A DNA stretch of 64,000 nt from Aquihabitans sp. (GTDB taxonomy: Bacteria; Actinomycetota; Acidimicrobiia; Acidimicrobiales; Iamiaceae). Location: assembly GCA_025353965.1 (NCBI GenBank), contig JANXNS010000003.1, positions 10,776 to 74,775 on the forward strand, in the 5' to 3' direction. Positions 39,210-48,374 of the stretch are shown piece after piece. The translations under genes and the position numbers were made by a program. The notes beneath the pieces were generated by a model that worked only from the letters and a program-made list of their open reading frames with translations, made no database searches and had not been told where the DNA came from. Numbering within the stretch: the first letter of the stretch is position 1; every line of letters starts with the position of its first letter.

Positions 39210-39350
39210 CCAGCCGAAGCAACTGCCCCATACCGCCGGCTCGGGGTCACCGACCAGCACATCTGGGATAGCTCGTCGCAGCTCAGCGCACTCGCTATAC
39301 GCCGTCGCGGCGGCAAGCCATCTATGTTGATGTCTGACGAGGAGTAGCGC

Positions 39351-39536
39351 ATGGGACATGAGGCGGAAGACGCACCGCGGATCGCAGAGTCGGACCTTGA
39401 GCAGGCCGAGGTGCTCGAATCGGCTGGCATGCAGAACTCACTTGTTGTTGCAGGTCCCAGCGCCTTGTTGATGATCCCTGTGGCTTGGGTGCTCACGTCC
39501 GTTGGGCGGGTGGTTCGCCTGCTTTGGAACCGCTAG
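39351..39536 (+). CDS. small hypothetical membrane protein (cassette-like unit)
   Basis: GAGGAG RBS, C-terminal hydrophobic segment, stop 7 nt before the site at 39543. Confidence 0.5.
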   Translation: MGHEAEDAPRIAESDLEQAEVLESAGMQNSLVVAGPSALLMIPVAWVLTSVGRVVRLLWNR

Positions 39537-39872
39537 GTCCACTTGCCCCAGCACGCCCGACAGGGGCGCAGCTCCTCCCCGGCTCAGGCTGAGCCAGGGG
39601 CGCCGCCGCGGGCTGGGCTCTGAGCCCTCCTGCTCGATTCGCCATCGGCTTCTGGCTGAGCGGATCGCGTTGTCATCGCTCGCCCCGCCTCCGTACCAGC
39701 CGCTACGTCCCACCCCGCACCAGTGAGAGAACTCCGACGCATCCCGAACTGTTCGTGAGACCGTTCGCGCCTCCGGGCGATCGGGAGCATCCTGGTGGAG
39801 TTCCAGGTCGAAGCCCTGGCCCGCGAACCAGGCGACGATGTCCTCGATCGGTTCCTGCTCGGGCAGAGGCAT
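39438..39872 (-). CDS. hypothetical protein (cassette-like unit); C-terminus runs through the site at 39543
   Basis: Globular-looking N-terminal ~85 aa; tail overlaps the neighbouring ORF, so the true end is uncertain. Confidence 0.4.
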   Translation of the reverse strand: MPLPEQEPIEDIVAWFAGQGFDLELHQDAPDRPEARTVSRTVRDASEFSHWCGVGRSGWYGGGASDDNAIRSARSRWRIEQEGSEPSPRRRPWLSLSRGGAAPLSGVLGQVDLAVPKQANHPPNGREHPSHRDHQQGAGTCNNK

Positions 39873-39974
39873 CGCGAGACCCTGACATGTGTCCTCGCCA
39901 AGGGCGCCCCCAAACGCCGGGTCGTGGGCATGGTCGCCACAGCGCTCAGGAAGGGACAGTCAGGCGAGGCGGCA

Positions 39975-40301
39975 TCAGGCATCGTCGGACACGATGAGGG
40001 GGCGATTGGTTCGCCGGGTCCAGGGACCACGGCGGCGCACCAACACCTCTACGCCGGAACGAACATCGTGCTGGGCGCAAATGTCGTCGAGCAAACGGCT
40101 CCGGTCGGCGCAATCGGTCGCTACGACCTCCTGCACCACCGCTCCGGTGTCCGCGGCCAGCACGGTGATGCTCCAGCCGGATTCCAGGAGTTCGGCAAGT
40201 GCCGCGTTGCCTGTCTGTACCAGCGCAATCCCCAAAACGCCGATGACGCGTCTACGGGATGGCGGGATCTCTACCACGAGGAGGTCGACGGGATCACCCA
40301 T
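39975..40301 (-). CDS. hypothetical protein (cassette-like unit)
   Basis: GGAGGAGG RBS before MGDPVDLL; bounded by sites 39904 and 40406. Confidence 0.55.
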   Translation of the reverse strand: MGDPVDLLVVEIPPSRRRVIGVLGIALVQTGNAALAELLESGWSITVLAADTGAVVQEVVATDCADRSRLLDDICAQHDVRSGVEVLVRRRGPWTRRTNRPLIVSDDA

Positions 40302-40457
40302 GGCAGCGCCTCCTCCTCCATCTCGATGCGAAATAGGCTGAGAGGCCTGACCCGCCAACCATTGCACGTCTGCCCGAGATCTTAACGCCCGAAGTCCCGG
40401 CTCAGGTGCCCTACAACGCCGGCTCAGGGCGCAGGGATCGACCCAGACGCCTTCTCC

Positions 40458-40988
40458 TCAAGCTCGCTCGACAGGTTGTGTGGACGGCTTCCTGCGGCGA
40501 GCGCCGATCAAGAGGGAACCGATGGCTACCGCTGCCGGCGCAGACCGGAGGACGACATCGCGCGCGACGATTGTCTCCGACGAGTAGCAGGTCTGGTTCT
40601 CGTCGTAGCTGTCGACGAAGCAGCGGCGGTCCTCGCCAGGGTGACGGGCGCCGAAGCTCACCATGAGGACTGCGAGGAGAAGCCAACCCAGCACGATCCA
40701 GGGAGCTGAACGGTGGCGCTCCTTCGCCAGCACCACGAGGCTCGCAAGTAGAGCGGCGGCGATGCCGACTACCACGATGCCGATGTACAGAGTCGGGCCG
40801 TTGGGAAAGTCGGCGCCGTTGTCGCTGCTGTACTCCACGCCGAACATCCTGGGCTTCGAGCCCCAGGCAATGCTTCGGAGGCCGTAGTAGGCGAGGGCCA
40901 GGGCGTACGGGCTTGCCGTCACCAGGGCGATCGCCGTCGACGTACGAACGTGGCCGCCGCCGGCGTTGTCAATCTGCTGTTCCGCCAT
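40458..40988 (-). CDS. hypothetical membrane protein (cassette-like unit)
   Basis: About 4 TM segments; bounded by sites 40406 and 41023. Confidence 0.65.
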   Translation of the reverse strand: MAEQQIDNAGGGHVRTSTAIALVTASPYALALAYYGLRSIAWGSKPRMFGVEYSSDNGADFPNGPTLYIGIVVVGIAAALLASLVVLAKERHRSAPWIVLGWLLLAVLMVSFGARHPGEDRRCFVDSYDENQTCYSSETIVARDVVLRSAPAAVAIGSLLIGARRRKPSTQPVERA

Positions 40989-41106
40989 CGTCGTACCGTA
41001 GCTGCGCGCCGAAACGCCGCGGGTGCCCCCAAACGCCGGGATGCGGCCACGGCCACCTGGCACTTCGGGGATGGTCCGATCGACATGGAGGTCGTAGCGT
41101 CCGTGG

Positions 41107-41739
41107 ATGGCCGCCTTGGAGCATCCGGGTTCTGCGGTCGGCAGTCAGTCCGACAAGGCTGAGTCCGGCGGTGAGAGAGGACCGGTCACGTTGTCCGACG
41201 GAGCAGTCGTGCTCAGACCCTGGAAGTCCTCCGACGCCGCTTTCATGGTTGAAGCCTCGAGGGAACCGGCAATAGAGCGTTACAACGGCACGGCGCCAGC
41301 CTCGGAGGCTGACGCCGTTGCCGTCATCGAGCGCATCCAGGAGAGCTGGCGTGCCTTCGAGGTCGAGGGTCATCCGACGGGGACCGCCTTCGTGATCGTG
41401 GATGCTGCCCTGGACGAACCTGTCGGAATGTGTGGCGTCGACCACTGGTCGAGCACCGACGTAGCCCAGTTCGGTTACTGGCTGGCGGCCGGTGCAAGAG
41501 GGCGAGGGATTGCGACTCGCGCCGCAACGCTGATGACGGGTTGGTTGTTCGAGCTCGGAGCGGCCCGGGTCTTCCTGACGATTGAGACCGACAACGCACC
41601 ATCGGTTGCGGTCGCCCGTCGGGTCGGGTTCACCTGCGAGGGCACGCTTCGTGCCTTCGGCGTCTGGCAGGGGCAACGTCGAGACGTGGACGTTTTCGCC
41701 GTCCTTCCCGATGAGTGGCCTCTGGGCGGGGACCACTGA
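41107..41739 (+). CDS. GNAT family acetyltransferase (RimJ/RimL-like)
   Basis: VVLRPW, QFGYWL...ARGRGIATRA, NAPSVAVARRVGF..EG; the site at 41740 follows the stop directly. Confidence 0.9.
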   Translation: MAALEHPGSAVGSQSDKAESGGERGPVTLSDGAVVLRPWKSSDAAFMVEASREPAIERYNGTAPASEADAVAVIERIQESWRAFEVEGHPTGTAFVIVDAALDEPVGMCGVDHWSSTDVAQFGYWLAAGARGRGIATRAATLMTGWLFELGAARVFLTIETDNAPSVAVARRVGFTCEGTLRAFGVWQGQRRDVDVFAVLPDEWPLGGDH

Positions 41740-41826
41740 CTGCCCCGCAACGCCGGGTAGAGGCCGCGACCGACGGCACATCGGTGGCACCCTCGGGTGA
41801 CGTCCAGGCCCGCGGCCACCGAGTGC

Positions 41827-42210
41827 ATGATGTGGACAATGCGGATTGCGATTGCGGTTGTGTTGGTACTCGCTGCGGTGGGGTGCGGGAACATCGTCTC
41901 GGACTCCGACGCGTTAGCGGTTCGGTTCAAGAACGACCTGGGCAAGCCCGTGCGGCTTGCACTCTGCAACAGCGACCACAGCGAGAAGTGCGAGAATCCG
42001 GCCTACTCCGACCCGGTCCCTGCTGGCGGGTCGATCGAGGAGAACATCGCTCCGACCGTGCAGACGGAATGGGCTGTGCTGGACGACCGGGATCGTCCCA
42101 TGCGCTGCGTTGTCCTCTACTGGCAACATGATCCGCTCGACGAGCCAGTCATTCGGTTGTCCTCCTCGCCACGATGGGCGAACCCTTGCCCCCGTCGGTC
42201 CAACACGTAA
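41827..42210 (+). CDS. putative lipoprotein (cassette-like unit)
   Basis: Signal peptide with lipobox LAAVG-C; Cys-containing mature domain. Confidence 0.65.
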   Translation: MMWTMRIAIAVVLVLAAVGCGNIVSDSDALAVRFKNDLGKPVRLALCNSDHSEKCENPAYSDPVPAGGSIEENIAPTVQTEWAVLDDRDRPMRCVVLYWQHDPLDEPVIRLSSSPRWANPCPRRSNT

Positions 42211-42332
42211 GTCGAGTCGAGGACCCCGGGTCGCTGGCGGGTGTCCCACAACGCCGGGTCGAGGCGTGCCAGACCGGCACCTTCGGGATACTCATCATCT
42301 TCGCCAGAACTGGCTTTCCTTGGACTTCGTCG

Positions 42333-42875
42333 TCAACCCAGCTTTCGGTCGTAGCGGCGAGCCACCGCGGCGAGTAGGGCCAGAACCACACTCAGGGCCA
42401 CCACCAGGCCCGCAGCTGCGTATGGCCACGAGCGATCGAAGCCGGTCGACGACGACCCAAGGTAGGAGCCGTCGATCGCGGTGGTGCCAGCGCCGGTACC
42501 GCAGTCGCCGTGAAAGTCGTAGGCGATCTGGGAGCTGACCCCATCCCCGCCAGACTGGTTGTTCCACCCCTTCACCCGATAGGACTCCCTCGGCATGAGC
42601 TCGCCGGGCGACCCGTCGTAGCGAACCACAACGGTTCCGCCCGGTTCCGGAATCTGACCCGCCCCGAACGGGTTGTCCTGTCGCACCCTGTCCACGCGAT
42701 AGGTGATACGGGGGCCGTCCATGGAGACGATCGTGCCGTCGAAGCTGAACCTCATCGCCCCCATCGAGCATGCATCCGCTCGCACCGGTTCACCGAGTGC
42801 GCCGAACGTAGCAGCGGCTACAAGCACGACCGCAGCCACCGACCACCGCCCCGCCCGCCAGACATCCCTCGCCAT
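42333..42875 (-). CDS. secreted, C-terminally anchored protein (cassette-like unit)
   Basis: Signal peptide, ADACSM, C-terminal TM segment followed by RRYDRK. Confidence 0.62.
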   Translation of the reverse strand: MARDVWRAGRWSVAAVVLVAAATFGALGEPVRADACSMGAMRFSFDGTIVSMDGPRITYRVDRVRQDNPFGAGQIPEPGGTVVVRYDGSPGELMPRESYRVKGWNNQSGGDGVSSQIAYDFHGDCGTGAGTTAIDGSYLGSSSTGFDRSWPYAAAGLVVALSVVLALLAAVARRYDRKLG

Positions 42876-42985
42876 CGCGGCATTCTGCCACAAAGTGCCC
42901 GGACGCGCACCCGGCTCCGCGACCCCATTGAGGTGCCCCACAACGCCGGTTCCCGGCGAGGGTTGTGCTCACTTGGCAGCCGAGG

Positions 42986-43624
42986 TCACCTGCCATGGCG
43001 GTCCGGCGTGTCGTTGAGCCAGAGGTCCGCATCCGGTCGGCGTCTGCGCTTCCACCACATCGCCGCCCGGAACCGTCGCGGGATCCTGCGCGGTTCTTCG
43101 ATCCTGAGCTGGCCGATGACGTTGCCGTCGACATCGAGGACCTCCGTGCTGCGTGCGGATGCGCGGTCAACCGTCACGACCCAGCCATGCGCGGGAACGT
43201 CTCGCGTCCGACCGTCCCTCCGCATCCGGGTTGCCTCCGAGACCAGGAGCCAGAGCCCGACGCAGTCTCCGGTGCGGACGTCGCCCTGCGTCGCGCCCTC
43301 CGAACACCCGTTGTGTCCCGACGTTGATCGAGGCGGAAGCACTGGCTCGCTGAAGTCCGATGAAGGACCGATCTGATCCCACACCCACGCCCCCTCTTCG
43401 CGACGGAAGCGGTGCGCTTCGATTACGAGCCCTGTGCGCTTGCCTCGACGTGCCACGGCCACGGCGGCGAGGTCCCCTCGAACATCGAGGCCCAGGAGGC
43501 GCCACCGTTGCCGACGGCTCATCTCCTTGGGGGAGCCGAGTCCATCGGCGTCGAGTGCCGCGGCCGCGCCCGCCACAATTTCCGCCCGTTGGGCGAGGAC
43601 TCGTTCCAGGTCTGCGCGTCGCAC
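42986..43624 (-). CDS. hypothetical protein (cassette-like unit)
   Basis: ORF between sites 42933 and 43682; GTG start inferred. Confidence 0.45.
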   Translation of the reverse strand: MRRADLERVLAQRAEIVAGAAAALDADGLGSPKEMSRRQRWRLLGLDVRGDLAAVAVARRGKRTGLVIEAHRFRREEGAWVWDQIGPSSDFSEPVLPPRSTSGHNGCSEGATQGDVRTGDCVGLWLLVSEATRMRRDGRTRDVPAHGWVVTVDRASARSTEVLDVDGNVIGQLRIEEPRRIPRRFRAAMWWKRRRRPDADLWLNDTPDRHGR

Positions 43625-43696
43625 AGCGCCAACGATTGCACCTGCGCCATCAAGAGACGGCGCGAGTTCACACAGCAGCGAGTGCCCCACAACGCC

Positions 43697-44227
43697 TAAT
43701 ACATGGGTGATCCATCGGGTCTCTCGGTGTAGCTCGCTGGTGGCGGGGAGCATGCGGGGATGAGCGACTTCCCATGTCTGGTCCGATCCTCGGGCGCTGG
43801 CGGGGAGGTGCGGTTCGCGCTGGGTGATCCGCTGGTCGACTCGTATCTGGCGTTCGTGGCTGGGAGGGCTCGGCCGAACACGCTGCATGCGGTCGCACGC
43901 GATCTGAAGACCTTCTTCACTGTCGTGGCCGAGGGGCCGGCCGAGGTGAGGTCTGCGGACGTGTTCGAGTTCCTGGCGCATCAGCGCGGCGACCGGACGG
44001 TGGTGCGCATCTCCGATCGCGAGTCGGGGTTGTCGGCGCGGACGATCGCCCGGCGGCTCTCGACGGTGTCGGGGTTCTACGCGTACCTGGTCGCGCGCGG
44101 CGACGCCGGCGTAGACGCGAACCCGGTTCCTCGGGGTCTGGCCACACGTCGACGTGGCGGACGCACCCAGACGGTCCCGTTGGTCCGGGCTTGGTGGCTG
44201 GCAGCCGCCTTCTCTTGGGCCATGTAA
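43697..44227 (+). mobile_element. internally deleted tyrosine-recombinase element inserted in a 17-bp site
   Basis: Terminal inverted repeats TACATGG (43700-43706) and CCATGTA (44220-44226) around a truncated integrase. Confidence 0.6.
43760..44227 (+). pseudogene. N-terminal (SAM-like) fragment of a XerD-like tyrosine recombinase
   Basis: LVDSYLAFV..RARPNTL, LSARTIARRLSTVSGFY.YL, NPVP; catalytic domain absent. Confidence 0.82.
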
Positions 44228-44258
44228 ACCATGGGGCGTCCGCAGGCGTATCTGAGGT

Positions 44259-44762
44259 GTGGAAGTGATCGGCGAGCGCGCTTTTGACGGAGAGTTCCCC
44301 GACCTGCTCCGTGTTGCGTACCGAGCAGCCTTCCGGATCACCGGAGACGCGGCCGCTGCAGAGGACGCCGCTGCGGAGGCACTGGCGAGGGCGTCGCTGC
44401 GTTGGGAACGCATCTCCGAACGGGCCACGCCCTGGGTCGTCCGGGTCGCGTCGAACCTTGCCGTCGACCACCTCCGCCGGGCTGCTCGCCGGAACCGGTT
44501 CGCACGGGACCGCTCCGATGCCAGCCCGGGCGAACACCGCTGCACCATCGACCTCCACCGGGCTCTCCAGACCCTGCCCAGACGACAACGTGAGGTCGTC
44601 GTCCTCCGGTATTTCGGTGACCTGAGCGAAGCCGAGATCGCAGCCGAGCTCGGCGTCGCCGCCGGAACCGTGAAGAGCCACGCCAGCCGCGGCCTCGCCG
44701 CCCTCCGCCTGCTCCTCGAAGACCGTCCTGTTCCTGCCGCCCTGCAACGAGAGGCAAGCTAA
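44259..44762 (+). CDS. ECF RNA polymerase sigma factor (SigE-like)
   Basis: AEDAAAEALARA, PWVVRVASN, LPRRQREVVVLRY, GVAAGTVKSHASRG. Confidence 0.92.
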   Translation: MEVIGERAFDGEFPDLLRVAYRAAFRITGDAAAAEDAAAEALARASLRWERISERATPWVVRVASNLAVDHLRRAARRNRFARDRSDASPGEHRCTIDLHRALQTLPRRQREVVVLRYFGDLSEAEIAAELGVAAGTVKSHASRGLAALRLLLEDRPVPAALQREAS

Positions 44763-46207
44763 TGACCGAGAACCAGTCCCTCGGGCACCCTGCACAAGAG
44801 CCCGACACCGCCACCGAAGCCCGAGTCCGGGCGCGAGTCACTGCGACCGTCCGCCTACGACGGGCCCGCCGGCGTGCCATGACCGCCCTTCCCGTCATCG
44901 CCGTGATCGCTCTCGTAGCCGTAGCCGTCGCCAACACGCGGGACAACAGCACGGGCCAGGACCGCCAAGTCGTCACCGCCGGGCACGGCGACGTCGAGCT
45001 GGCGTTCGAACCGGACGTCGAATGGGACGACGCCGTCTTGTCCGCCGACGGCAAGACCCTGACGGTGACCGCCAGCCGCGTCCTGCACAACTCGAGGAGC
45101 TGCCAGCTCGACGTCCTCCACGACGTCGTCGAAACCGATGATGCGGTGACCATCGGCCTCAAGGACGCCACCGCACCCGAGGACACAACTCCGATGGCAT
45201 GCAAGGCGGTGCTCGTACCCGCCGTCGTCAAGATTCCACTCAATGAACCTCTGGGGGACCGGGCCGTCTTTGACGGTGTGCGACCCAAGGCGCGCACTGT
45301 CCTCCGGCTCGCCGAGCTCGTCCAGGTCACCTACGTCCCCGCCGGGTTCACGACCAACCCCGACGACATCCCGTCCAAAGACACGAACGTGCAGCAGACC
45401 TACAATGCCGACGGGGCCGACTGGTACTTCGCTGTCAACGAAACCAAGGCTGCGACGCCGACCGACCTCCCGGGCGCCACGTCGACACCGATCTTGGTCA
45501 ACGACATCGAAGGTGTGCGGATCACCGGTCAGATGAACAACACCATGGAGTCCATCCGCTTCCCCCTTGGCGGCCGGACGGTCACCGTGTGGGGCGAGAT
45601 GCAAGGACCGCCGACGTTCACCCACGCCGACGAGCTCCAAAAGATCGCCGAGGGCATCCGACTCCTCGAAGCGGGAGCCAAGGATCTTCCGGCGGTCACA
45701 ACTTCAGCCCCAACGGATTCCGGCCACAGCACCGGAGCCCCCAAAGGGACACCCCAGCAGCCCACCCCTCAGACCGATAGCTTCGAAATCGAAGTGTCCC
45801 CCGAGTCCCCATACGCAATCGGGATTCGAAAGGCTCTCGACTTAGGCCCAACTCCCGTCACACGGGTCACACGGGTCAACGTTGACAACAAATCGTTCGT
45901 GCACGACAGCGTCAACACGCAAGCCGATCAAGGTCTCAGCGCAACGATCTACCACGATTGCGCCCTCTTCCTGACAGAGAGGGGCGAACCCGACGCCGCC
46001 TCCTCAGGTGCCAATGTCTGGATCGGCGTCGTGAACGACGAGCTCGTGACGCTCGGCTTCTACAACCCCGAAACGGGAGTGGCACTCTCGGTGAGCTACA
46101 CAAGCGCTGACCACCGGCCCGTCACCACCGCCAGCCTGACTGCAACCGCAGCACGCTTGTCCGCCGTGCCGGCCGTGGTGGAAGAAGTCGGAGGTGGCTG
46201 TGAGTAG
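44762..46207 (+). CDS. membrane-anchored extracytoplasmic protein (putative ECF partner)
   Basis: TAATG coupling to the sigma gene, basic patch plus one TM segment, large ectodomain. Confidence 0.62.
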   Translation: MTENQSLGHPAQEPDTATEARVRARVTATVRLRRARRRAMTALPVIAVIALVAVAVANTRDNSTGQDRQVVTAGHGDVELAFEPDVEWDDAVLSADGKTLTVTASRVLHNSRSCQLDVLHDVVETDDAVTIGLKDATAPEDTTPMACKAVLVPAVVKIPLNEPLGDRAVFDGVRPKARTVLRLAELVQVTYVPAGFTTNPDDIPSKDTNVQQTYNADGADWYFAVNETKAATPTDLPGATSTPILVNDIEGVRITGQMNNTMESIRFPLGGRTVTVWGEMQGPPTFTHADELQKIAEGIRLLEAGAKDLPAVTTSAPTDSGHSTGAPKGTPQQPTPQTDSFEIEVSPESPYAIGIRKALDLGPTPVTRVTRVNVDNKSFVHDSVNTQADQGLSATIYHDCALFLTERGEPDAASSGANVWIGVVNDELVTLGFYNPETGVALSVSYTSADHRPVTTASLTATAARLSAVPAVVEEVGGGCE

Positions 46208-48213: not shown

Positions 48214-48374
48214 GGACGACCTACGAAGGTCTCACCCTCCGAGTATCCCCTATCACCGGCAATACGGGTCCGTGGGTCACCCGTAGAACAGCGACTCTAG
48301 GAGCCCCCAGCAGCGCTCTGGTGTCGGAGCGATCACGGTGCCATCCAGGGGCGTTACGGGATAGAACTGACGGC

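What the first reader, a model, noticed from the sequence alone, without database searches (positions are those of the whole stretch)
43682..44239. A second tyrosine-recombinase element inserted precisely into a cassette site
Seen: site 43682 breaks off exactly after AACGCC and is followed by TAATACATGG, a truncated XerD-like gene and CCATGTAA. Removing 43697-44227 in silico gives CACA-ACGCC-ACCATGG-GGCGT, restoring the ACGCC-N7-GGCGT dyad seen at other sites. Inference: this element family targets the cassette sites, analogous to IS1111-attC elements and attC-targeting group IIC introns. Alternatively it is a relic of the recombinase that services the array.
Basis: partly seen in the sequence, partly recalled or inferred. 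Interest (0 to 1): 0.62.

Follow-up and report, generated by a model that had tools for sequence, protein, structure and literature searches.

The report
Dead Tn554-like transposon in cassette site
A 493-base stump of a two-recombinase (Tn554-like) transposon sits exactly at the spot its intact relatives always choose: a 25-base palindromic site that also separates the small genes of a cassette-like array here.

Summary
The left junction is real. The site TGCCCCACAACGCC ends at 43696, and 43697 is the first base of a conserved element end (TAATACATGGGTGATCC). It is followed by codons 1-144 of a tyrosine-recombinase gene.

Intact relatives in 58 loci of Acidimicrobiia and other Actinomycetota are about 2.4 kb. 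They carry two tandem recombinase genes, reciprocal best matches of Tn554 TnpA and TnpB, and have no tnpC. Their ends are TAATACACGGGTGATC and GATCACCCGTATAACG.

All 49 distinct left flanks and most of the 35 distinct right flanks fit one oriented target, tGTCCCCgAWCGCC | (CC)GGnTCnGnGCG. A matrix built only from those foreign flanks recovers the window's array sites at 14-20.7 bits. Of 10 genome-wide hits at 18 bits or more, 4 lie in this 5-kb array. So the family does target these sites.

Homology to the family stops at 44189. CCATGTAA (44220-44227) lies in a conserved ECF-sigma promoter that a homologous gene in another genome, lacking the element, also has. The "restored dyad" is coincidence.

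The copy is a 3'-truncated relic, and this genome has no other copy. A weak right half-site sits at the breakpoint (44188). Whether these recombinases also move the cassettes is open.

The parts
43683..43696 (+). Left half of the occupied target site (TGCCCCACAACGCC)
   Evidence: Scores 12.8 bits on a left-half matrix built only from relatives' flanks. Same sequence as the site at 42934.
43697..44189 (+). 493-bp 5' relic of a Tn554-related tnpA-tnpB transposon. The left terminal inverted repeat TAATACATGGGTGATCCATC is at 43697-43716.
   Evidence: blastn to 45+ relatives gives 72-85% identity. Alignments start at about 43680-43693 and end at 44189. The left-end profile hits here only, in the whole genome, at E=4e-11.
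43760..44191 (+). tnpA codons 1-144: the core-binding (SAM-like) domain only, with no catalytic domain. The open frame runs on into unrelated DNA to a stop at 44225-44227.
   Evidence: Pfam PF02899, E=1e-9. Relatives align to residues 1-143/144 only.
44188..44198 (+). Candidate right half of the original target site (GGCTTGGTGGC), at the homology breakpoint. Weak.
   Evidence: Best right-half score in 44185-44275, at 5.2 bits; the background frequency of such a score is 0.55% per position. Joined to 43683-43696 it gives an 18.0-bit site.
44211..44258 (+). Promoter region of the ECF sigma gene (-35 GTAAAC 44224-44229, 17-nt spacer, -10 CGTAT 44247-44251).
   Evidence: Aligns with the upstream region of the homologous sigma gene in G343:C360 with the same 17-nt spacing. 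The promoter assignment rests on general knowledge of ECF promoters.
44259..46207 (+). ECF sigma factor (44259-44762) and its partner ORF (44762-46207): the unit downstream of the occupied site
   Evidence: Pfam Sigma70_r2 and Sigma70_r4_2
39224..42958 (+). Eight unoccupied same-strand sites of the array, 25 nt each, starting at 39224, 39544, 39905, 40407, 41024, 41741, 42242 and 42934
   Evidence: Six of them score 14-20.7 bits on the matrix derived from relatives' flanks.

Best explanation
43697-44189 is the 5' stump of a Tn554-related transposon: the left end plus the first 144 codons of tnpA. Intact members are about 2.4 kb and carry only tnpA (about 358 aa) and tnpB (about 440-460 aa), both tyrosine recombinases. 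They are bounded by imperfect inverted repeats, TAATACACGGGTGATC on the left and GATCACCCGTATAACG on the right.

The family inserts by site- and orientation-specific recombination into a 25-bp imperfect palindrome, tGTCCCCgAWCGCC^GGnTCnGnGCG, at the CGCC/GG step. The window's array is made of such sites, and one of them (43683) was hit.

A later deletion removed about 1.9 kb, from tnpA codon 144 to the right end. It probably stopped at the element's right junction, leaving GGCTTGGTGGC as the right half-site. The copy is dead, and this genome holds no other copy.

Shown: family identity, the exact left junction, target consensus and orientation, and the truncation point.

Inferred: the recombination chemistry, by homology with Tn554; that the deletion ended at the right junction; and that the ends form an attTn core in a circular intermediate.
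For: Family and ends:
- Searches found 58 related loci.
- Searches show two tandem recombinase genes in the relatives.
- Searches give conserved ends, 29 paired full-length copies of mostly 2383-2440 bp (a few up to 3.9 kb), 49 distinct left flanks and 35 distinct right flanks.
- In the left flanks, A at -6 occurs in 46/49, C at -4 in 47/49 and G at -3 in 48/49.
- In the right flanks, T at +6 occurs in 31/35, G at +9 in 29/35 and G at +11 in 28/35.

Target test:
- The matrix built from foreign flanks scores the array sites at 14-20.7 bits.
- Genome-wide there are 10 hits at 18 bits or more, against 1 in the reversed control. Four of the 10 lie in the 5-kb array, all on the + strand.

Homology with Tn554 (pWBG4 copy):
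- TnpA against TnpA gives E=6e-28. TnpB against TnpB gives E=4e-26 and includes the C-terminal Cys motif. The cross-pairs give only 2e-9.
- The catalytic R...HxxR...H...Y blocks are conserved in both proteins.

Truncation:
- Searches place the break at 44189 and find no element-derived DNA beyond it.
- Searches find no second copy in the genome.

Literature:
- Actinobacterial Tn554-related tnpAB elements without tnpC are described in PMC3414803, including one on pREL1. The 58%-identical relative found here is on pREL1.
Against: - No empty or full-length allele of this very site could be found, so the original right flank is not seen directly.
- The right half-site at 44188 is weak: 5 of 8 specified positions, post hoc p of roughly 0.03.
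- About 5 of the 29 paired relatives have non-canonical right flanks.
- Transposition of this clade has never been observed. Mobility is inferred from multiple copies with different flanks in one genome (L040, L041, L043, L060).
Confidence: 0.85

Rival explanations
1. One reading: a complete miniature element 43697-44227 bounded by TACATGG...CCATGTA, whose precise removal restores an ACGCC-N7-GGCGT site.
For: A 7-bp inverted repeat exists, and the in-silico joint has the outer dyad.
Against: - Genuine right ends (GATCACCCGTATAACG, 40 examples) have no counterpart at 44190-44255.
- 44211-44258 is homologous to the promoter region of an ECF sigma gene in a genome without the element, with identical -35/-10 spacing.
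- The right half of the joined site scores -1.1 bits.
- A 7-mer match found by scanning about 600 bp is expected by chance.
Confidence: 0.04
2. The fragment is a relic of the recombinase pair that services the array. On this view TnpA/TnpB-type enzymes recombine site with site, excise and integrate the small gene units as an integron integrase does, and the transposon form is only one product of that activity.
For: - The enzymes must recognise the site, since it is their target.
- The site is a palindrome built like the element's own joined ends: inverted arms around an AACGCC core.
- Tight same-strand arrays occur in other genomes that also hold copies of the family: L074 has 6 sites in 5.5 kb, L077 has 4 sites, and L018 and L023 have sites on both sides of an element.
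Against: - The element is a discrete unit with its own conserved ends that differ from the sites.
- It also sits at single sites outside arrays.
- Arrays such as L074 have no tnpAB next to them, and this genome has no intact copy.
- No cassette was found in two different arrays.
Confidence: 0.15
3. Chance juxtaposition: a recombinase pseudogene that merely lies next to a repeat copy.
For: None beyond the small size of the fragment.
Against: - All 49 distinct left flanks in other genomes carry the same half-site at the same base.
- A left-half score of 12.8 bits or more occurs at about 1e-4 per position in the window.
Confidence: 0.01

Closest known systems
Tn554 of Staphylococcus aureus (tnpA, tnpB, tnpC)
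   Same: - Same gene order: tnpA, then a longer tnpB.
- Reciprocal best similarity of both proteins, including the TnpB C-terminal cysteine motif.
- Site- and orientation-specific insertion.
- The copies of the core on the two sides are not always identical, so there is no strict target duplication. For Tn554, the lack of target duplication and the carry-over of a 6-bp left-flank core are reported in PMC10214605.
   Different: - No tnpC.
- TnpB lacks about 155-240 N-terminal residues.
- No cargo genes, so the element is IS-sized at 2.4 kb.
- Clear 14-16-bp imperfect terminal inverted repeats.
- The target is a multi-copy 25-bp palindrome rather than a single att554.
Actinobacterial Tn554-related tnpAB elements without tnpC (Van Houdt et al. 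2012, PMC3414803; e.g. Rhodococcus erythropolis PR4 pREL1)
   Same: TnpA is 58% identical. The subterminal architecture is the same (CTTGACAnnGATCACCC...). Two genes only.
   Different: The Rhodococcus and G030 clade has a TnpB of about 611-626 aa. The two copies examined sit inside IS3-family transposase genes, not in the palindromic site. Targets were not defined in that paper.
IS1111-attC elements and group IIC-attC introns (from general knowledge)
   Same: Mobile elements that insert at a fixed position and orientation in the recombination sites separating the units of a cassette array.
   Different: Unrelated machinery: a DEDD transposase and a ribozyme with reverse transcriptase, respectively. 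Their target is an integron attC, which these 25-bp sites are not.
[quoted passage not shown]
   Same: [quoted passage not shown]
   Different: SEs have four core genes (intA, tfp, intB, srap), carry cargo and occur in Gammaproteobacteria.

Membership tests
Tn554-related transposons | Adjacent, co-oriented tnpA (about 360 aa) and a longer tnpB, both tyrosine recombinases | tested here: met
   In relatives: 358 aa plus 457 aa, overlapping, both matching PF00589. Catalytic blocks are conserved. The window keeps only tnpA codons 1-144.
Tn554-related transposons | Sequence orthology to Tn554 TnpA and TnpB | tested here: met
   A-A gives 6e-28 and B-B gives 4e-26, against 2e-9 for the cross-pairs, using the Tn554 copy on pWBG4.
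Tn554-related transposons | Third gene tnpC (DUF6262) | tested here: not met
   The 2.4-kb relatives are filled by the two genes. Absence of tnpC was already noted for an actinobacterial subgroup in PMC3414803.
Tn554-related transposons | Site- and orientation-specific insertion without a true target duplication | tested here: met
   One oriented target consensus was obtained from 49 left and 35 right flanks. The CGCC copies on the two sides differ in L010, L014, L018, L020, L021, L037 and L046. Carry-over of the donor core could not be tested.
Integron (IntI plus attI plus attC array) | IntI-type integrase | tested here: not met
   TIGR02249 scores 70 bits against a cut-off of 265, and NF011946 scores 43 against 435.
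Integron (IntI plus attI plus attC array) | attC sites (about 57-141 bp, with R''/L''-L'/R' boxes) | not tested
   The sites are about 25 bp. No attC model was run.
Xer/dif | XerC/XerD equivalog | tested here: not met
   TIGR02224 scores 133 bits against a cut-off of 335, and TIGR02225 scores 121 against 330.
Recombinase-in-trio (RIT) elements | Three adjacent recombinase genes ritA, ritB and ritC | tested here: not met
   Only two genes lie between the ends.
IS1111-attC group (IS110 family) | DEDD-type transposase | tested here: not met
   The element's proteins are tyrosine recombinases. The resemblance is in behaviour only.

The most novel reading that the evidence does not exclude
The 25-bp palindromic sites and the TnpA/TnpB-type recombinases together form an integron-like cassette system of Acidimicrobiia and related Actinomycetota. 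It is carried in the cargo regions of integrative mobilisable elements with TrwC-type relaxases. The recombinase module is itself mobile and docks into the array it services.
Probability: 0.15. Interest if true: 0.8.

Novelty: new variant of a known kind. Interest (0 to 1): 0.55.

Why it matters
Tn554-type transposons are known mainly as carriers of resistance genes in staphylococci. Their actinobacterial relatives have been listed, but their ends and targets had not been defined.

Here the ends, the size and a 25-bp oriented target consensus are defined for an uncultured-lineage clade. The target turns out to be the repeat that delimits small gene units in arrays on integrative mobilisable elements.

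That gives three things:
- A sequence handle (matrix plus element ends) for finding such arrays.
- A candidate enzyme pair that certainly recognises the sites.
- A simple test of whether actinobacteria, which are reported to lack integrons, have an independent cassette system.

For annotation, it shows that this ORF is a dead transposon stump, not a Xer recombinase.

Tried and rejected
- Right end at 44220-44227: rejected. There was no hit from the right-end profile, the Smith-Waterman scan or short-word blastn against full elements. The sequence is homologous to an ECF promoter elsewhere.
- Internal-deletion (MITE-like) model, in which 44190-44232 is the element's right tip: rejected by the same tests.
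- Genome-wide REP-like repeat: rejected. The motif is concentrated in one array in this genome.
- Other copies in the own genome: none found by protein, DNA or end profiles.
- Empty or full alleles: same-family genomes share the downstream unit only distantly.
- Cassette mobility: GNAT homologues at 50-62% identity in other genomes have no adjacent sites. No window cassette recurs in the fetched arrays.
- Breakpoints of seven other 5' stumps (L042, L047, L050, L059, L063, L064, L066) show no common half-site.
- A Listeria hit turned out to be a lone 302-aa recombinase ORF with no second recombinase gene beside it, probably a chromosomal Xer gene rather than Tn554.

Full report
**Observation**

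TGCCCCACAACGCC ends at 43696. TAATACATGG starts at 43697. An ORF at 43760-44227 encodes 155 aa with only the N-terminal SAM-like (core-binding) domain of a tyrosine recombinase (PF02899, E=1e-9). CCATGTAA lies at 44220-44227.

The repeat belongs to a real array. Nine copies within 3 mismatches of TGCCCCACAACGCCGG lie on the + strand between 39224 and 43683, 320-750 bp apart, with none elsewhere on that strand. In the whole 3.18-Mb assembly the motif is concentrated here. The exact dyad ACGCC-N7-GGCGT, however, occurs only once, at 42251.

**What the fragment is**

The protein has one copy in its own genome but many relatives elsewhere.
- A search of 1.84 billion representative proteins gave 781 hits at E<=1e-10. 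Alignments consistently end at query residue 144.
- A scan of GTDB genomes gave 58 loci, mostly Acidimicrobiia/Acidimicrobiales, Ilumatobacteraceae and Microthrixaceae MAGs, at 70-84% identity.
- A same-family relative (G031 = JBBSGQ010000354) has a 358-aa recombinase followed by an overlapping 457-aa recombinase.
- The catalytic arginine, HxxR and H...Y blocks are conserved in both proteins across relatives.

**Ends and size**

In the relatives, similarity starts exactly at TAATACACGGGTGATC, which corresponds to window position 43697. It ends at ...CTTGACAnnGATCACCCGTATAACG. Twenty-nine copies have both ends. Most are 2383-2440 bp, which is just the two genes. The ends are imperfect inverted repeats. 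Joined head to tail they would read GATCACCCGTAT-AACGCC-TAATACACGGGTGATC, that is, inverted arms around a short core. This is the usual build of a tyrosine-recombinase site; the reading is inference.

**Target**

Beyond the ends the flanks are unrelated between copies except for a short consensus.
- 49 distinct left flanks read tGTCCCCgAWCGCC. A at -6 occurs in 46/49, C at -4 in 47/49 and G at -3 in 48/49.
- 35 distinct right flanks read CCGGnTCnGnGCG. T at +6 occurs in 31/35, G at +9 in 29/35 and G at +11 in 28/35.
- Put together, this is the window's array site, always in the same orientation relative to the element.

As an independent test I built a 25-column matrix from those foreign flanks only and scanned the window's genome.
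- It recovers 39224 (20.7 bits), 42242 (20.3), 39905 (19.1), 40407 (18.5), 42934 (16.8) and 41741 (14.0), all on the + strand.
- Genome-wide there are 10 hits at 18 bits or more, against 1 in the reversed control. Four of the 10 lie in this 5-kb stretch.
- The occupied half-site at 43683-43696 scores 12.8 bits. Such a score occurs at about 1e-4 per position.

One genome holds at least four copies with identical ends and different flanks (L040, L041, L043, L060), which argues for recent mobility.

**Right boundary**

- blastn alignments to 45+ relatives all stop at 44189. At that point relatives continue with TGCCGCG..., while the window reads CTTGGTGG....
- The next 70 bases match no part of any full element.
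- A profile of 40 right ends and a Smith-Waterman scan find nothing there.
- Window 44211-44258 aligns with the region upstream of the homologous ECF sigma gene in a same-family genome that has no element there. The window reads TCTCTTGGGCCATGTAAACC..ATGGGGCGTCC...CGTATC. G343 reads TCTCGGGGGTCGTGTAAACCGAACGGTGCGG...CGTACC. Both have GTAAAC, a 17-nt spacer and CGTA(T/C).
- From general knowledge of ECF promoters (AAC at -35, CGT at -10), this is the sigma factor's own promoter.

So CCATGTAA is not a terminal repeat, and cutting at 44227 would cut through a promoter.

Only 44190-44210 remains unassigned. The best right-half match in 44185-44275 lies exactly at the breakpoint: GGCTTGGTGGC at 44188, 5.2 bits, with a background frequency of 0.55% per position. 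Joining it to the left half gives an 18.0-bit site.

I therefore think the deletion ran from tnpA codon 144 to the element's right junction. That would leave site-left-half | stump | site-right-half | ECF unit. This rests on a weak, post hoc match (p of roughly 0.03) and is marked as inference. Other 5' stumps in relatives, 127-912 bp long, show no common feature at their breaks.

**Family membership**

Tn554 itself was found on S. aureus plasmid pWBG4, with tnpA of 361 aa, tnpB of 630 aa, tnpC (DUF6262), ant(9)-Ia and erm(A).
- The relatives' TnpA matches Tn554 TnpA at E=6e-28, almost end to end.
- Their TnpB matches Tn554 TnpB at E=4e-26, including the C-terminal NG.C..P...C....C..C..F motif.
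- The cross-pairs give only 2e-9.
- Scores against XerC/XerD and integron-integrase models are far below their cut-offs.

Van Houdt et al. [quoted passage not shown] A copy on pREL1 is my 58%-identical relative. It has the same subterminal motif (CTTGACATCGATCACCCACAT). Like the G030 copy, it appears to sit inside an IS3-family transposase gene (Pfam-confirmed for G030, read from the flanking sequence for pREL1). Target choice is thus clade-specific, and the Acidimicrobiia clade is the one that uses the palindromic site.

**Mechanism**

By homology, insertion is conservative site-specific recombination between the joined ends and the site, at the CGCC/GG step.
- The sequence CGCC appears on both sides (...AWCGCC|TAATAC... 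and ...GTATAACGCC|GG...).
- The two copies differ in L010, L014, L018, L020, L021, L037 and L046. It is therefore not a replicated target duplication.
- This fits what is reported for Tn554 and for SEs, where a short core from the previous left flank travels to the new right junction (PMC10214605).
- I could not test carry-over directly. The AACG next to the right end is invariant and looks like part of the element.

**Arrays elsewhere, and who services them**

The site is enriched in six relatives' genomes, with 15-26 hits against 0-6 for the control. It forms tight same-strand arrays without any element in them.
- G063:C13 has six sites in 5.5 kb, scoring up to 25.8 bits.
- G066:C5 has four sites.
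- Sites lie on both sides of elements in L018 and L023.

In the window, in G063:C13 and in G064:C1 the array lies within a few kb of a TrwC-type relaxase. In the first two it also lies near an integrase; the two integrases are 35% identical. The arrays therefore seem to be cargo regions of integrative mobilisable elements.

The enzymes of the transposon must bind the site, so site-by-site recombination by them is plausible. Nothing here shows it. No cassette was seen in two arrays, arrays exist without a nearby tnpAB, and this genome has none left. I give that reading about 15%.

**Limits**

No empty or full allele of this locus was found. All relatives are MAG contigs. No transposition has been observed.

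**Verdict**

This is a real, precisely placed, but dead copy of a Tn554-related two-recombinase transposon. The family's specificity for the array's sites is newly defined. The proposed right end and the "restored dyad" are artefacts.

Noticed in passing
window 48244-48363: A unit of about 120 bp is bounded by two inward-facing left-half sites: TATCCCCTATCACC at 48244 (+, 12.8 bits) and TATCCCGTAACGCC at 48350 (-, 13.2 bits). The inner sequence CAATACGGGTCCGTGGGTCACCCGTAGAAC resembles a left end followed directly by a right end of the transposon family. It may be a second, almost completely deleted relic or a miniature derivative. The right-end profile gives only E=2.4 here.
   Followed up: partly
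window 43412-43699: An upstream ORF (95 aa, GC3 0.84) reads through the site (…PHNA) and takes its stop codon TAA from the first three bases of the inserted element. Without the insertion it would run on for about 30 more codons.
   Followed up: no
L074 (G063:C13:236000-254000), L086 (G064:C1:3674001-3694000) and window 39-54 kb: Site arrays lie next to TrwC-type relaxase genes in three unrelated genomes. In the window and in L074 they also lie near an integrase (the two are 35% identical). In L086 a family-like element sits between the sites and the relaxase. The arrays look like cargo regions of integrative mobilisable elements.
   Followed up: partly
L011 5220-5270: A site 700 bp upstream of a full element has its right half replaced by GGTTACATGGGTGATCCACC, which matches the element's left end at 16 of 18 bases. 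It appears to be a solo left-end relic of about 20 bp at a neighbouring site.
   Followed up: no
L008 7255-10215 (G030:C3) and L067 3427-6378 (pREL1): The more distant clade, with TnpB of about 611-626 aa, appears to be inserted in IS3-family transposase genes in both copies examined (Pfam-confirmed for L008, read from the flanking sequence for L067). It has 14-bp terminal inverted repeats (ATATGTAGGTGATC in L008). The paper on SEs also reports an insertion into an IS3 gene.
   Followed up: partly
L091 8715-8745 (Tn554 right end) compared with relatives' right ends: Tn554's right end reads ACTCTTGATAAGATGTA. The actinobacterial family reads CCTCTTGACAnnGATCACC. The shared CTCTTGA(C/T)A could be a conserved binding motif or coincidence.
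   Followed up: no
L018 8330-9800: One relative is 3.9 kb long because extra DNA lies between tnpB and the right end. The extra ORF starts like an IS256-type transposase (judged by eye only).
   Followed up: no
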